Assembly (NCBI GenBank): GCA_040900505.1 | Contig: JBBDYY010000021.1 | Coordinates: 1-25,448, forward strand | Origin: Parcubacteria group bacterium | GTDB taxonomy: Bacteria; Patescibacteriota; Minisyncoccia; Phycocordibacterales; Zambryskibacteraceae | Length of the DNA stretch: 25,448 nt | Direction: 5' to 3' | Shown here: one piece after another, positions 4,121 through 18,852 of the stretch | Layout: every line of letters starts with the position of its first letter | Numbering within the stretch: the stretch's first letter is position 1 | Program-made: the position numbers and the translations under genes | Notes under the pieces: model-generated | What the model was told of the DNA's origin: nothing | What the model saw: only the letters and a program-made list of their open reading frames with translations | Database searches by the model: none

Positions 4121-5500
4121 TTAAACCTCCAGTTTGTAAGTCTTCCCCCTCTCAGGCACTATAGCTTCTACTCCAAGTTCATCATGTAAGCGCTGAGCAA
4201 GAAATATGGAGGAGGCTGTTTCTCCCATGGCTATAAAAACTTTTTTTAAAGTGTCCTGGCTTGCAGAAACGAACTCCACTAAATTATTTGAATCCTTGTG
4301 CGCCGAGTATCCGCCAATTTGGATAACTTCTGCCCTCACATTAATCTTCGCCCCATGTATATCCACTGTCTTCATACCTTCGGAAATCTGCCTGCCTAAG
4401 GTGCCGGCCGCCTGGTAGCCGACAAAAAGGATGGTGGCATTTGGGTCTGGAAGATAATGAGCTTCGTGTCCTACTATCCTCCCTCCTGTAGACATGCCAG
4501 ACCCCGCAAGGATAATCTTCCCCCCTTGGGTTCTGTTGATCTCTTCTGCATCCTTGACTTGAACAGTTTCAAGAAGTTTGGGAAATTTAAAAATATCATC
4601 ATGCTTTGCCTCTTCCCGCACTGAGTCCTTGTAATAGGCAGAGGTCTTCTCATAAATCTCGGTAACTTTTATTGATAGAGGAGAATCTAAAAAGACTGGA
4701 ACATTCCTCACCCCCTCCTCATTAAAAATTTTATTCAATTCATATAAAACAATTTGCGTTCTTTCTAAGGAAAATACTGGTATAAGAAGAGTCCTGCCCT
4801 CTTTAATCACGCGGTGAATAATTTCTTTAAACTTTCTGTCCCTCTCCTCTGTCCCCTCATGATTGCGATCTCCATATACAGAATCCATCAATAAGTATGC
4901 TAGTCCTGTAACCACTTCTGTATCCCTCAAGAGAGGCGAGGGTGAGTTGCCGAGATCACCGGTAAAGAGCATGGATTTGTCAGAAGGGAAGATGAATTTG
5001 TACATGGCTGAGCCCAGAATATGGCCAGCATCATAGAGTTCTACGCTAAAGTCGGTAAAGCTTTTTGCCTCATGATACGGGATGGTTTGCCAGAGCCTGA
5101 GGCTCTCTTCAACATCGTGGTTGGTATAAATCGGCAAGGTGCCGTCCCGCCTTGCATTGCTGTCGCTAATCTTCGCTATGTCCATCATCATTAATTCCGC
5201 AATGTCTTTGGTCTCTCTAGTGGAATATATGATTCCTTTAAAACCGTCATGCACAAGCTTCGGAATCCTCCCTATATGATCTATGTGTGCGTGAGTGACG
5301 AAGAGGGCGTCGATGGAAAATGGATCATACGGAAAATCTTTATGATTCTCCTCTTCCGAACCATGCACTCCTTGGAGAAGTCCGCAATCGACTAAAATCT
5401 TTTTAGTCGTCCCGAATTCCTGTGAGGGACCTATCTCGAGCAGAAAGTTGGCGCCAGTAACTGTTCCCGCCCCACCCCAGCATGTAAGATTAACTAGCAT
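4121..5500 (-). CDS. MBL-fold beta-CASP RNA-processing ribonuclease (YSH1/CPSF73-like)
   Basis: LVDCG, THAHIDHIG, DAGHILGSA, FTGDLG, SGMSTGG and GYSAHKD motifs. Confidence 0.92.
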   Translation of the reverse strand: MLVNLTCWGGAGTVTGANFLLEIGPSQEFGTTKKILVDCGLLQGVHGSEEENHKDFPYDPFSIDALFVTHAHIDHIGRIPKLVHDGFKGIIYSTRETKDIAELMMMDIAKISDSNARRDGTLPIYTNHDVEESLRLWQTIPYHEAKSFTDFSVELYDAGHILGSAMYKFIFPSDKSMLFTGDLGNSPSPLLRDTEVVTGLAYLLMDSVYGDRNHEGTEERDRKFKEIIHRVIKEGRTLLIPVFSLERTQIVLYELNKIFNEEGVRNVPVFLDSPLSIKVTEIYEKTSAYYKDSVREEAKHDDIFKFPKLLETVQVKDAEEINRTQGGKIILAGSGMSTGGRIVGHEAHYLPDPNATILFVGYQAAGTLGRQISEGMKTVDIHGAKINVRAEVIQIGGYSAHKDSNNLVEFVSASQDTLKKVFIAMGETASSIFLAQRLHDELGVEAIVPERGKTYKLEV

Positions 5501-5891
5501 AAAATATTTTTTTCGTTCCCCAGATGCCGGCTAATGTTCCTCCCACTATGTCAGCGATGAGATCTGTCACGGTATCTAGCCCGTATCCCTCTGTAGATTG
5601 GGTGAGACCATACACGTATTCAAATATTTCCCACCCAACTCCCACTACCACTGTAACCAATACTGCTGTAAGAAACGCGCTCGTTTGACTTGGTCTTTGT
5701 TTGTTCCAGAGTCCTGAATCCCAAAATACCCAAAGAGCGAAAAGGCCGACAAAAACTCCGCCTATAAGGTGAGCCAAAGTGTCATACCAACCAATACTCC
5801 AGTAAAGATAGAAGAAGGATCCGACTAAATGTAGAATAAATAAACCAATAAGGACCGCGAAACTGGTAAAGAGAAGGGAAAAATTCTGCAT
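5490..5891 (-). CDS. Small four-TM membrane protein (DUF2238/VanZ-like), with intramembrane H, ExxE and DxxxD residues
   Basis: WYDTLAHLIGG, VGVGWEIFEY and DTVTDLIAD motifs. Overlaps the start of the beta-CASP gene by 11 bp. Confidence 0.7.
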   Translation of the reverse strand: MQNFSLLFTSFAVLIGLFILHLVGSFFYLYWSIGWYDTLAHLIGGVFVGLFALWVFWDSGLWNKQRPSQTSAFLTAVLVTVVVGVGWEIFEYVYGLTQSTEGYGLDTVTDLIADIVGGTLAGIWGTKKIFYAS

Positions 5892-5897
5892 TTCAAA

Positions 5898-5906
5898 ATT
5901 ATATCA
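5898..5906 (-). promoter_or_regulatory. Extended -10, leaderless arrangement
   Basis: TGaTATAAT, 6 nt, then ATG (5891). Confidence 0.7.
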
Positions 5907-5914
5907 TTGATGCT

Positions 5915-5937
5915 AAAAATCCCGCTTACGCGGGATT
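5915..5937 (-). terminator. Intrinsic terminator after the small RNA
   Basis: Minus strand AATCCCGC-GTAA-GCGGGATT followed by TTT. Confidence 0.75.
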
Positions 5938-5944
5938 CTTAGTG

Positions 5945-6067
5945 AGGGTTATTCTGGTATACCCTAGTTTCAGAACTAAGGTGGGTTCTCTCAGCTGTAA
6001 CCCCAAGGGGTTAGGCGATTCGAGATCCCTGAAAAATCTTTAGCTAGATAATACCTCAAATAACCCT
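5945..6067 (-). ncRNA. ssrS: Probable miniature 6S RNA (123 nt)
   Basis: Rod closed by AGGGTTATT/AATAACCCT, GGTAT/ATACC and CTAG/CTAG. Central bubble about 14 x 15 nt. GGGATCTC...GAGAGAACCCACCT resembles Firmicutes 6S GGGAGCCC...GAGGGCACCCACCU (recalled from memory). Apical TAACCCC-TT-GGGGTTA. Own TATAAT (6074-6079) 6 nt upstream and a terminator downstream. Confidence 0.62.
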
Positions 6068-6170
6068 GTATACATTATATTCCTTTTTTCCAAAAAACCT
6101 GTTGATATCTACTCGACGAACACCTGAAAACATTTTGTATTTGGCCTTATGGTGTATGCTCCGTTTTCCT

Positions 6171-6773
6171 CTACTCCAAAATACCGTCTAGATTAACATC
6201 ATAAAGGATCTCATCGTTAATAGATCTGTAACTTATTATCTCTCCGTCCTGAAACCAGATTTTTATCTCACGTAGAGCTTCTTCTGTCTTATCCGAGCAA
6301 TGGATGAGGTTACGCACAGCTCTGCCGTCTACATTAGCCAAACCATAGGAGTCTAAGGTGAAGTCACCACGGATAGTGCCTACGTCTGAGGCAGTAGGTT
6401 CGGTTCCCCCAACAAGCTTCTTCACAATAGCCACGGCCTGATTCCCTTCTACAATGAAGCCGACCACCGGCCCAACAGTAAAATATTTGTATAGGTGCTC
6501 TAGAACGTCTCTGCCGTACTCGACGGCATCTTTCGTAGGCTCTCCGCCCTTGTCTTTAATCTCTTCGATGGTCCGCGCACCTACCTTCTCGCACCAAGCG
6601 TCATCCTTACCATAGTGTTCTATGGTCTTTTCCCTGGTGGGTACGAACATCTTTAGAGCTATGATCTTAAGACCAGTGTTTTCTATGCGCTTAATAATTT
6701 CTCCGACGAGAGCACGCTGAACTCCATCATGCTTTACCGCTACGAATGTCCTTTCTTTCTTTGGATGAGTCAT
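6171..6773 (-). CDS. ndk: Nucleoside diphosphate kinase
   Basis: ERTFVAVKHDGVQRALVGEII, GPVVGFIVEG, GTIRGDF and NLIHCSD (catalytic His). Confidence 0.95.
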   Translation of the reverse strand: MTHPKKERTFVAVKHDGVQRALVGEIIKRIENTGLKIIALKMFVPTREKTIEHYGKDDAWCEKVGARTIEEIKDKGGEPTKDAVEYGRDVLEHLYKYFTVGPVVGFIVEGNQAVAIVKKLVGGTEPTASDVGTIRGDFTLDSYGLANVDGRAVRNLIHCSDKTEEALREIKIWFQDGEIISYRSINDEILYDVNLDGILE

Positions 6774-18280: not shown

Positions 18281-18440
18281 TTATTTGAGGGTAACTTTCC
18301 CACCAGCCGTCGTCGCAAGCTCCTCCTTAAGAACCCTCGGTTCTCAACGAAAAACACTCTTCCGAGTGTTTTTCTGCTTTCCTCCGCGGGAGACCAGATG
18401 TTCTCCCGACCCCTCTCCAAGCCGGCGAGTAACTCTGAAG
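18281..18440 (-). mobile_element. Structured mini-element, copy B: inverted rplL 3'-end copy + conserved core + recoded direct copy of rplL 3' end
   Basis: 18419-18440 is an inverted copy of 18445-18470. Core 18320-18418 is homologous to 122-203. 18281-18307 encodes AGGKVTLK* in synonymous codons. Mobility is inferred. Confidence 0.65.
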
Positions 18441-18441
18441 A

Positions 18442-18852
18442 TTACTTCAAAGTTACTTTACCGCCGGCTTCCTCGATTCTCTTCTTCAATTCCTCTGCTT
18501 CCTCCTTCTTCATGCCTGCTTTAAGCATGCTGGGAGCTGCATCAACAAGATCCTTTGCTTCCTTAAGACCGAGGGCAAGAACCTCTTTCACTACCTTGAT
18601 GACTGCAATCTTATTTGCACCACCGTCAGTGAGTTCTACATCTGCTGTAGCCTTTTCCTCAGCTGCTTCACCTGCTGCTGCGGGACCGGCTGCTGCGACT
18701 GCTGTAGCTGATACTCCGAACTTGTTTTCAAACACCTTTACAAGCTCGTTAAGATCCAAGACTGACATCTTCTCTATCTCAGCTACAATCTTTTCAAACT
18801 TTGCAGGAACTGCAGTTTCTGCAGCTTCTACGTTTGTTGTTTCGTCTGCCAT
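18442..18852 (-). CDS. rplL: 50S ribosomal protein bL12 (L7/L12)
   Basis: [21 protein letters not shown]...[22 protein letters not shown]...AGGKVTLK. Confidence 0.98.

What the first reader, a model, noticed from the sequence alone, without database searches (positions are those of the whole stretch)
5915..6079. Probable miniaturised 6S RNA (123 nt) with its own promoter and terminator
Seen: unannotated minus-strand unit of TATAAT, 6 nt, a 123-nt rod with a perfect 9-bp terminal helix, a central bubble and an apical hairpin, then an intrinsic terminator. Established: canonical 6S RNAs are about 180-200 nt and mimic an open promoter for sigma70-RNAP. Inference: both the closing stem (about 24 nt) and the internal stem are much shorter than canonical. 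This would be a minimal promoter mimic, possibly missed by standard models, and would imply global transcription control in a reduced genome.
Basis: partly seen in the sequence, partly recalled or inferred. Interest (0 to 1): 0.65.

Follow-up and report, generated by a model that had tools for sequence, protein, structure and literature searches.

The report
Miniature 6S RNA gene in Patescibacteria
The flagged stretch is a real, separately transcribed gene for a very short (about 124-nt) version of 6S RNA, the bacterial RNA that imitates an open promoter and holds RNA polymerase. It is conserved once per genome across an order of ultra-small bacteria, where the standard database model does not detect it.

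Summary

**The unit (minus strand).** It consists of a TATAAT box (6079-6074), six bases, a 124-nt structured core (6067-5944), and an intrinsic terminator (5937-5915).

**Conservation.**
- A model built from 19 close homologs finds exactly one copy in 121 of 151 genomes of the same order, 110-183 nt long.
- 30 of 33 base pairs show compensatory changes.

**Link to 6S RNA.**
- Rfam's 6S model (RF00013) gives no hit on the window and passes its cut-off in 0 of 151 genomes of the order.
- On longer homologs it gives co-extensive sub-threshold hits of 20-26 bits. These align the 6S signature GGGAGC...GCACCCACCU with high confidence.
- My model hits 19 of 22 Patescibacteria loci that RF00013 detects, at the same place and strand, including all seven above its cut-off.

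**Release switch.** The RNA has the E. coli-type design. The 3' strand of the downstream helix can instead pair with the 3' bubble as a hairpin. This alternative exists in 60 of 61 homologs.

**Rivals.**
- SRP RNA is excluded, because no Ffh or FtsY is found.
- A riboswitch is unlikely, because the downstream gene has its own promoter.

**Limits.** RNA polymerase binding and pRNA synthesis are inferred, not shown.

**Earlier notes.** The scan has already reported miniature 6S RNAs on other Patescibacteria DNA.

The parts
6074..6079 (-). -10 promoter box TATAAT of the RNA gene. No convincing -35 box.
   Evidence: Read directly. It is conserved at a fixed distance from the RNA start in 19 homologous loci. 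The geometry TATAAT-N6-start is the same as at the leaderless downstream gene.
5944..6067 (-). Miniature 6S RNA core (124 nt). RNA nt n corresponds to window position 6068-n. The transcription start at A6067 is inferred.
   Evidence: R1 hit 5944-6067, 123.3 bits. Fold z = -3.93. Covariation in 30 of 33 pairs.
6044..6067 (-). 5' strand of the closing (downstream-DNA-like) arm. P1 is nt 1-10, P2 is nt 13-17, P2b is nt 20-24 (UCUAG). This is the likely pRNA template region.
   Evidence: Helices 1-4 are 84-97% paired, with changes on both sides. The sequence GGUAUUAUCUAG is invariant in the genus. The template role is inferred by analogy with E. coli 6S.
6030..6043 (-). 5' side of the central bubble (nt 25-38), A/U-rich.
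   Evidence: Unpaired in the consensus structure. It aligns to the A/U-rich 5' bubble of the RF00013 consensus in homologs.
5983..6029 (-). Internal (upstream-DNA-like) arm, nt 39-85. It runs GGG-A-UCUC ... GAGA-A-CCC and is capped by a variable hairpin with a CUUG loop.
   Evidence: Helices 5-6: GGG/CCC is invariant and the other pairs co-vary strongly. Longer relatives carry insertions at the tip of this arm.
5968..5982 (-). 3' side of the central bubble (nt 86-100). It follows the near-invariant motif CACCCACCU, which spans nt 81-89.
   Evidence: The motif is conserved across the order. It matches the RF00013 consensus caCCCACCUgg.
5961..5982 (-). Alternative 9-bp hairpin (nt 86-94 with nt 99-107). 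It uses the 3' strand of P2b and P2, so it is mutually exclusive with the rod. This is the predicted release hairpin.
   Evidence: It is present in the minimum-energy fold and persists when nt 11-28 are blocked. An equivalent hairpin of 5 bp or more is found in 60 of 61 homologs, mean -7.9 against -1.9 kcal/mol for shuffles. The same calculation on E. coli 6S gives its known 9-bp hairpin.
5945..5967 (-). 3' strand of the closing arm: nt 101-105 (CUAGG), nt 107-111 (AUACC) and nt 114-123 (GAAUAACCCU).
5915..5937 (-). Intrinsic terminator: 8-bp G+C-rich stem, GUAA loop, U5 tract.
   Evidence: Read directly. Folded in the full transcript. The stems co-vary in homologs.
5889..5903 (-). Separate promoter of the next gene: TATAAT (5903-5898), six bases, then ATG (5891-5889) of a leaderless membrane-protein mRNA. 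It marks the end of the RNA's transcription unit.
   Evidence: Nearly all of the 19 homologous loci show a -10-like box (TATAAT or a near match) a few bases upstream of the start codon.

Best explanation
This is the ssrS-type gene of an ultra-small Patescibacteria (Parcubacteria-like) bacterium, encoding a miniaturised 6S RNA.

**Transcription.** The gene has its own -10 promoter. Transcription starts at A6067 and stops at the terminator ending at 5915.

**Shape.** The roughly 124-nt core can adopt a rod with three parts:
- a 20-bp interrupted closing arm (nt 1-24 with nt 101-123);
- a central bubble of 14 nt on the 5' side and 15 nt on the 3' side;
- a short internal arm (nt 39-85).

**Inferred mechanism, by homology with characterised 6S RNAs.**
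1. The rod occupies the DNA channel of the sigma70-type RNA polymerase holoenzyme as an open-promoter mimic, and so throttles or stores the enzyme.
2. [quoted passage not shown]
3. That frees the 3' strand (ACUAGGGUAUACC), which snaps onto the 3' bubble (ACCUUAGUU) as a 9-bp hairpin.
4. The bubble collapses and the polymerase is released.

**Shown and inferred.** Gene, conservation, structure, homology to 6S and the two alternative pairings are shown. Polymerase binding, the pRNA start site and the physiology are inferred.
For: **Real, conserved, single-copy gene**
- Homologs occur in all 21 same-genus genomes (E from 2.7e-12 to 2.0e-23).
- R1 finds exactly one hit in 121 of 151 genomes of the order.

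**Structure**
- 94.5% of cells are paired, against 78.3% in shuffles and 41-48% in slid controls.
- 30 of 33 pairs have changes on both sides.

**Homology to 6S**
- RF00013 gives sub-threshold hits co-extensive with R1 hits on 5 of 20 long homologs. GGGAGC...GCACCCACCU is aligned at high posterior probability.
- R1 hits 19 of 22 RF00013-positive loci of the phylum at the same place and strand, including all 7 that pass the cut-off of 46.4 bits.
- 4 of the 5 sub-threshold RF00013 hits in the order coincide with R1 hits.

**Release switch**
- Rod and hairpin forms differ by 1.6 kcal/mol.
- The hairpin is conserved in 60 of 61 homologs.
- The same design appears in E. coli 6S. PMC8876501 describes that 9-bp hairpin in the 3' bubble.

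**Feasibility of a short 6S**
- Engineered 78- and 82-nt 6S-1 variants that lack the -35-like region still run the 6S cycle in vitro, with about 10-fold lower affinity (PMC8876501).

**Target present and other RNAs accounted for**
- One sigma70-family gene is found in the genome.
- No other 6S candidate is found in the genome, while RNase P RNA is found elsewhere in it. The tmRNA model passes its cut-off in the four complete relatives but gives only weak partial matches in this 79.5%-complete genome.
Against: - RF00013 gives no hit at E<=10 on the window or anywhere in the genome.
- R1 does not detect the E. coli ssrS locus, so the link to experimentally studied 6S RNAs is transitive, through the Rfam model.
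- The internal arm has about 15 bp over roughly 21 positions per strand. That is probably too short to reach a full -35-like contact.
- The predicted free RNA prefers the closed three-way junction.
- The 5' strand GGUAUUAUCUAG is unusually conserved in sequence for a 6S closing arm. This could point to an additional or different interaction.
- The covariation counts come from an alignment fitted to the model's structure.
- There are no expression or binding data.
Confidence: 0.85

Rival explanations
1. A descendant of 6S RNA that has changed its job. It could be a trans-acting base-pairing sRNA, or the RNA part of another ribonucleoprotein that uses the invariant single-strand-capable stretch GGUAUUAUCUAG. 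In that case it would no longer act as an RNA polymerase trap.
For: - The 5' stretch is invariant across the genus and nearly so across the family.
- Both arms are shortened, and the free RNA is predicted to close its bubble.
- Synteny with a beta-CASP RNase gene is strict in 17 of the 18 close relatives' loci that are counted; the other contig ends before that gene.
Against: - The parts kept under selection are those a promoter mimic needs: the bubble, the flanking GGGAG/CACCC helix and the CACCCACCU strand, plus the release hairpin.
- Truncated 6S-1 variants still work in vitro (PMC8876501).
- No target or partner protein was identified.
Confidence: 0.08
2. A cis-acting leader or riboswitch: an aptamer-like three-way junction plus a terminator that controls the downstream membrane-protein and beta-CASP RNase genes.
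For: - The order structured domain, terminator, gene resembles a transcriptional riboswitch.
- The gene order map-ndk-RNA-membrane protein-beta-CASP is conserved in the close relatives wherever the contig reaches.
Against: - Between the terminator and the start codon, nearly all of the 19 loci carry their own -10-like box a few bases before the start codon, so the gene is transcribed separately and leaderless.
- No alternative pairing links the domain to the terminator.
- No riboswitch family matches.
- The RNA is homologous to 6S RNAs that sit in other contexts.
Confidence: 0.03
3. A divergent SRP (4.5S) RNA, since no SRP RNA is detectable in these genomes.
For: RF00169 finds nothing over its threshold in the genome or in 5 complete relatives. 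The RNA is a single-copy, housekeeping-like gene.
Against: - No Ffh M domain and no SRP54-type GTPase domain (Ffh, FtsY) is found in this genome, in 101 genomes of the order or in 121 of the phylum. Only P-loop fragments match.
- phmmer with E. coli Ffh against all ORFs of the genome gives nothing.
- The literature notes that SRP subunits are absent in many CPR bacteria (PMC8080830).
- The apical loop is a variable CUUG-type cap, not a conserved GNRA loop with the AGCA-type loops of SRP RNA.
Confidence: 0.01

Closest known systems
6S RNA / SsrS (Rfam RF00013), E. coli type with the pRNA-induced 3'-bubble release hairpin
   Same: - A rod with a closing arm, a central bubble of about 14-15 nt per side, and an internal arm.
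- The conserved GGGAGC...GCACCCACCU core, as in the Rfam consensus.
- A 3' strand of the downstream helix that can switch to a 9-bp hairpin with the 3' bubble.
- A single-copy stand-alone gene.
   Different: - 124 nt instead of 183 nt (E. coli) or 187 model positions.
- The 5' strand of the closing arm is about 24 nt instead of about 41 nt.
- The internal arm is 47 nt instead of about 72 nt, so the -35-like part is largely missing.
- It is made directly from a -10 promoter and an intrinsic terminator rather than cut from a longer precursor.
- It is not next to the 5-formyl-THF cyclo-ligase gene that follows ssrS in E. coli.
- It scores below any reportable RF00013 value.
Patescibacteria 6S RNAs of about 150-158 nt that RF00013 does detect (loci L073-L079)
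   Same: - The same core motifs and the same short internal arm.
- R1 aligns to them at the same coordinates and strand.
- All belong to ultra-small genomes of the same phylum.
   Different: Those RNAs keep a long closing arm with about 15-18 extra positions at each end. The window's lineage has lost this outer part.
Engineered minimal B. subtilis 6S-1 variants 6S78 and 6S82cp (PMC8876501)
   Same: [quoted passage not shown] They show that such an RNA can still bind the holoenzyme, template pRNA and be released.
   Different: Those are laboratory truncations with about 10-fold lower affinity. This is a natural RNA, evolutionarily maintained across an order, and of the E. coli-like hairpin-release design rather than the collapse-helix design of 6S-1.
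Ms1 RNA of Actinobacteria
   Same: A 6S-like structured RNA that binds RNA polymerase and that 6S models miss.
   Different: According to the abstract of PMC9130861, Ms1 binds the core enzyme rather than the holoenzyme. From my own knowledge, it is about 300 nt long. I did not compare its sequence with this RNA. Nothing here points to Ms1.

Membership tests
6S RNA (SsrS, RF00013) | Match to the Rfam covariance model at or above the gathering score (46.4 bits) | tested here: not met
   - There is no hit at E<=10 on the window region or in the genome.
- 0 of 151 genomes of the order pass the cut-off.
- This criterion is an operational threshold rather than a biological property. Longer homologs score 20.9-26.0 bits at the same place.
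6S RNA (SsrS, RF00013) | Homology to accepted 6S RNAs (transitive) | tested here: met
   - The family model R1 hits 19 of 22 RF00013-positive Patescibacteria loci, co-located and on the same strand. This includes all 7 above the cut-off, for example L079 at 32.8 bits, E = 3e-5.
- R1 does not reach E. coli ssrS.
6S RNA (SsrS, RF00013) | Rod-shaped secondary structure: closing arm, large central bubble, internal arm, supported by covariation | tested here: met
   - The RNAalifold consensus is a rod.
- 94.5% of cells are paired and 30 of 33 pairs have compensatory changes, while slid controls are 41-48% paired.
- The bubble is 14 nt and 15 nt in the window RNA.
- Caveat: the alignment was fitted to the model.
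6S RNA (SsrS, RF00013) | Conserved core sequence around the bubble (GGGAGC on the 5' side, GCACCCACCU on the 3' side) | tested here: met
   The window has CAGGGAUCUC ... GAGAGAACCCACCU. The order-wide alignment keeps GGGAG and CACCCACCU nearly invariant. These motifs align to the same consensus positions of RF00013.
6S RNA (SsrS, RF00013) | Capacity for pRNA-induced refolding (3'-bubble hairpin or collapse helix that competes with the downstream helix) | tested here: met
   A 9-bp hairpin forms when nt 11-28 are blocked. It is conserved in 60 of 61 homologs. The same calculation on E. coli 6S gives the same result. This is a computational test only.
6S RNA (SsrS, RF00013) | Length of about 180-200 nt with a -35-like region in the internal arm | tested here: not met
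   The core is 124 nt and the internal arm 47 nt. PMC8876501 shows that the -35-like region is not required for the basic 6S cycle in vitro.
6S RNA (SsrS, RF00013) | Binds the sigma70-type RNA polymerase holoenzyme and templates pRNA | not testable with these tools
   Only the presence of one sigma70-family gene in the genome could be checked.
Bacterial SRP RNA (RF00169) | Conserved domain IV loops and an Ffh partner | tested here: not met
   - There is no RF00169 match.
- No Ffh or FtsY domains are found in the genome, the order or the phylum sample.
Riboswitch or transcription-attenuation leader | Co-transcription with the regulated gene and a terminator/antiterminator alternative | tested here: not met
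   A separate -10 box six bases before the ATG lies between the terminator and the gene. No Rfam cis-regulatory family matches.

The most novel reading that the evidence does not exclude
These RNAs would be among the smallest natural 6S RNAs (110-125 nt in many genomes of the order), and they largely lack the -35-like arm. Some of these genomes show only one sigma70-family gene. In that setting the RNA cannot work by shifting competition between sigma factors. It would act purely as an NTP-sensing store or brake for the whole transcription apparatus of an episymbiont. Alternatively, the invariant 5' strand may give it a second, lineage-specific partner. The longer relatives would add a kink-turn-like module that recruits an extra protein.
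Probability: 0.2. Interest if true: 0.65.

Novelty: new variant of a known kind. Interest (0 to 1): 0.5.

Why it matters
- **Annotation gap.** 6S RNA is regarded as nearly universal in bacteria, yet it goes unannotated in the candidate phyla radiation. RF00013 passes its cut-off in 0 of 151 genomes of this order and in 7 of 151 of the phylum sample. A dedicated model would close this gap for a large part of the bacterial tree.
- **A natural minimal mimic.** A 6S RNA of 110-125 nt shows which parts of the promoter mimic evolution keeps when everything else is pared away. Those parts are the bubble, the GGGAG/CACCCACCU core, a short downstream arm and the release hairpin. This agrees with in-vitro truncation work on B. 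subtilis 6S-1.
- **Regulation in tiny genomes.** Genomes of 0.4-0.7 Mb with one to three sigma factors still invest in global control of RNA polymerase. This bears on how these obligate symbionts enter and leave dormancy.
- **Literature.** I found no paper in the held library that links 6S RNA with CPR or Patescibacteria.

Tried and rejected
- **Rfam at gathering thresholds on the whole window:** nothing.
- **Rfam at E<=10 on 5850-6200:** only terminator-driven noise such as RsmY, isrK and P24, and no 6S or SRP match.
- **ARAGORN:** no tRNA or tmRNA in the window.
- **Simple promoter and terminator scanner:** it lists neither the promoter (no -35 box) nor the terminator.
- **RF00013 and RF00169 on the genome and on 5 complete relatives:** nothing over threshold.
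- **SRP RNA idea:** rejected after finding no Ffh or FtsY.
- **Riboswitch idea:** rejected because of the separate leaderless promoter.
- **R1 on the E. coli ssrS locus with filters off:** only noise of 5.6 bits or less, so no direct link to E. coli 6S.
- **Literature searches:**
  - '6S RNA' with 'candidate phyla radiation' gave 0 papers.
  - '6S RNA' with 'Patescibacteria' gave 1 irrelevant paper.
  - Searches for published minimum lengths of natural 6S RNAs gave nothing usable.
- **Unpublished genome:** locus L011 comes from the unpublished genome G018. It was seen in the first alignment and in the synteny table.

Full report
**What is there**

All of the following lies on the minus strand.
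- A perfect TATAAT box lies at 6079-6074, followed by six bases.
- The RNA begins AGGGUUAUU at 6067. Its 3' partner AAUAACCCU ends at 5945.
- Seven bases later comes an intrinsic terminator: AAUCCCGC-GUAA-GCGGGAUU (5937-5918), with a U run to 5915.
- No ORF of 40 aa or more overlaps the unit.
- Upstream lies ndk (6773-6171). Downstream lie a 133-aa DUF2238-like membrane protein (5891-5490) and a beta-CASP RNase (5500-4121).
- The core folds at -44.2 kcal/mol, z = -3.93, and 0 of 200 shuffles fold as well.

The window is contig 21 of a 369-kb, 79.5%-complete genome of an ultra-small bacterium. Earlier notes of the scan call it CPR/Parcubacteria.

**It is a conserved, independent gene**
- BLASTN finds the stretch in all 21 genomes of the genus (E from 2.7e-12 to 2.0e-23) and in most of the family.
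- In the alignment, the TATAAT box keeps its distance from the RNA start. The terminal helix co-varies (GGGUUAU/AUAACCC against GGGCUAU/AUAGCCC). The apical hairpin varies freely while keeping its pairing. The terminator stems co-vary.
- The gene order map-ndk-RNA-membrane protein-beta-CASP is kept in the close relatives wherever the contig reaches.
- Right after the terminator, nearly every locus has a second -10-like box a few bases before the start codon of the membrane protein.
  - The downstream gene is therefore a leaderless mRNA with its own promoter, and the RNA is a separate transcription unit.
  - The same spacing (TATAAT, six bases, start) places the RNA's start at A6067.

**Distribution**

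I built a covariance model, R1, from 19 sequences (A1; the unpublished genome G018 was excluded).
- R1 finds exactly one hit in 121 of 151 genomes sampled from the order.
- These hits span more than 100 families and are 110-183 nt long.
- The longer ones carry their extra bases at the tip of the internal arm.

**Structure**

I made a model-guided alignment of 61 sense-strand hits (A3). On it, the consensus rod does well:
- 94.5% of cells are paired, against 78.3% in column shuffles and 41-48% when partners are slid by 1-3 columns.
- 30 of 33 pairs have compensatory double changes.
- Caveat: the alignment is fitted to the model, which favours it.

In the window RNA the parts are as follows.

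| Part | RNA nt |
|---|---|
| P1 | 1-10 with 114-123 |
| P2 | 13-17 with 107-111 |
| P2b | 20-24 with 101-105 |
| 5' bubble | 25-38 |
| Internal arm | 39-85 |
| 3' bubble | 86-100 |

**Why it is 6S RNA**

Rfam's RF00013 gives nothing on the window or in the genome, even at E<=10. Three lines of evidence nevertheless connect the family to 6S.

1. *Sub-threshold hits on longer homologs.*
   - On 20 longer homologs, RF00013 gives hits that are co-extensive and on the same strand as the R1 hit in five cases. The scores are 26.0, 23.4, 22.0, 20.9 and 20.9 bits, against a cut-off of 46.4.
   - The printed alignments match the 6S consensus GGGagccc...gggcaCCCACCUgg to the family's GGGAGC...GCACCCACCU at high posterior probability. 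The A/U-rich 5' bubble is also aligned.
2. *Overlap with detected 6S RNAs in the phylum.*
   - In a sample of 151 genomes of the phylum, RF00013 detects 22 loci at E<=0.01, and 7 of them are above the cut-off.
   - R1 hits 19 of these 22 at the same coordinates and strand, including all 7 above the cut-off, 3 of them over the central core only.
   - Those RNAs are 150-158 nt. They have the same short internal arm but a closing arm about 15-18 positions longer at each end.
3. *Overlap within the order.*
   - RF00013 passes its cut-off in 0 of 151 genomes of the order.
   - Of its 5 sub-threshold hits there, 4 coincide with R1 hits.

**The release switch**

The 3' strand of the downstream helix (CUAGG...) can pair in two ways. 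It can pair with the 5' strand (UCUAG), giving the rod. Or it can pair with the 3' bubble (CCUAG), giving a hairpin.
- In the window RNA the two forms differ by 1.6 kcal/mol.
- Blocking nt 11-28, as a pRNA hybrid would, leaves a 9-bp hairpin.
- A hairpin of 5 bp or more that uses the same nucleotides exists in 60 of 61 homologs. The mean is -7.9 kcal/mol against -1.9 for shuffles, and the distal pairs co-vary.
- The rod pairing next to the bubble also co-varies (helices 3 and 4).
- The same calculation on E. coli 6S (locus L098) yields its 9-bp hairpin. The literature describes this hairpin as a major contributor to pRNA-induced release (PMC8876501).

**Is so short a 6S plausible?**

PMC8876501 reports 78- and 82-nt B. 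subtilis 6S-1 derivatives that lack the -35-like region. They still bind the holoenzyme, template pRNA and are released, at about 10-fold lower affinity. The genome encodes one sigma70-family factor. Complete relatives have one to three.

**Rivals**
- *SRP RNA.* I considered this because RF00169 finds nothing over its threshold in the genome or in complete relatives.
  - The partner proteins are missing too. No Ffh M domain and no SRP54-type GTPase domain is found in the genome, in 101 genomes of the order or in 121 of the phylum, while all 14 control genomes match.
  - phmmer with E. coli Ffh finds nothing among the genome's ORFs.
  - PMC8080830 notes that SRP subunits are absent in many CPR bacteria.
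- *Riboswitch.* The separate downstream promoter and the homology to 6S speak against it.
- *Changed function.* A 6S descendant with a different job cannot be excluded. The 5' strand GGUAUUAUCUAG is unusually invariant.
- RNase P RNA lies elsewhere in the genome. The tmRNA model passes its cut-off in four complete relatives but gives only weak partial matches in this incomplete genome.

**Verdict**

It is a new variant of a known kind.
- Shown: the gene, its conservation, structure, homology and switch design.
- Inferred: polymerase binding, pRNA synthesis and physiology.

After I had reached this reading, look-ups showed that the scan had already reported miniature or divergent 6S RNAs on other Patescibacteria DNA. 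They also showed first-reader notes on look-alike loci downstream of ndk. These notes agree with the present result but are not independent evidence.

Noticed in passing
window 5889-5903 (minus strand); the same position in L002-L020: The membrane-protein gene downstream of the RNA is preceded by TATAAT, six bases and the start codon, with no Shine-Dalgarno sequence. This leaderless geometry recurs, with a -10-like box a few bases before the start codon, in nearly all of the 19 homologous loci.
   Followed up: partly
whole genome G000 and relatives (not in the window): No SRP pathway is detectable. No SRP54-type GTPase domain (Ffh, FtsY) is found in G000, in 101 genomes of the order or in 121 of the phylum. 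No Ffh M domain is found in G000, four complete relatives or 121 genomes of the phylum. No SRP RNA is found in G000 or five complete relatives. All 14 control genomes match the two protein families, and 13 of 14 match the SRP RNA family. PMC8080830 already notes that SRP subunits are absent in many CPR bacteria.
   Followed up: yes
L041, L053, L064, L065, L069, L071 and other long homologs (tip of the internal arm): The 144-184-nt homologs carry an internal loop in the extended arm, with GAUGA(G) on the 5' side and (U)CUGA on the 3' side. It looks like a box C/D-type kink-turn. The strict motif occurs in 10 of 25 long variants, and several others have near-variants. The window's short RNA lacks it.
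   Followed up: partly
G117:C42:18120-18277 next to 18367-18549; L028:1967-2065: Some genomes of the order seem to carry two 6S-like genes. In G117, a sub-threshold RF00013 hit lies about 90 nt upstream of the R1 hit. In G084, a second, weaker R1 hit (33 bits, with GGGAAUCC...GGAUACCCAC and its own terminator) lies about 340 nt downstream of the first.
   Followed up: partly
L002-L015, about 50-70 nt upstream of the RNA's TATAAT box (between ndk and the RNA): Many same-genus loci share a further conserved motif, CATATT..AAAA(T/A)CTGGGGATTA, in the ndk-RNA spacer. The window's own spacer (6080-6170) does not show it in that form. Its function is unknown.
   Followed up: no
G000:C24:8653-8871; G007: Only one sigma70-family gene (region 2 domain) is found in this genome and in a 100%-complete genome of the same genus. 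Other relatives have two or three. In a single-sigma cell, 6S RNA cannot act by favouring an alternative sigma factor.
   Followed up: partly
window 4121-5500 (minus strand): A 459-aa beta-CASP/metallo-beta-lactamase RNase gene lies two genes downstream of the 6S gene in every close relative whose contig reaches that far. In B. subtilis, RNase J1 has a key role in 6S RNA processing and decay (PMC10578484, abstract seen). From my own knowledge, RNase J1 also belongs to the beta-CASP family. The linkage here may be coincidental.
   Followed up: no
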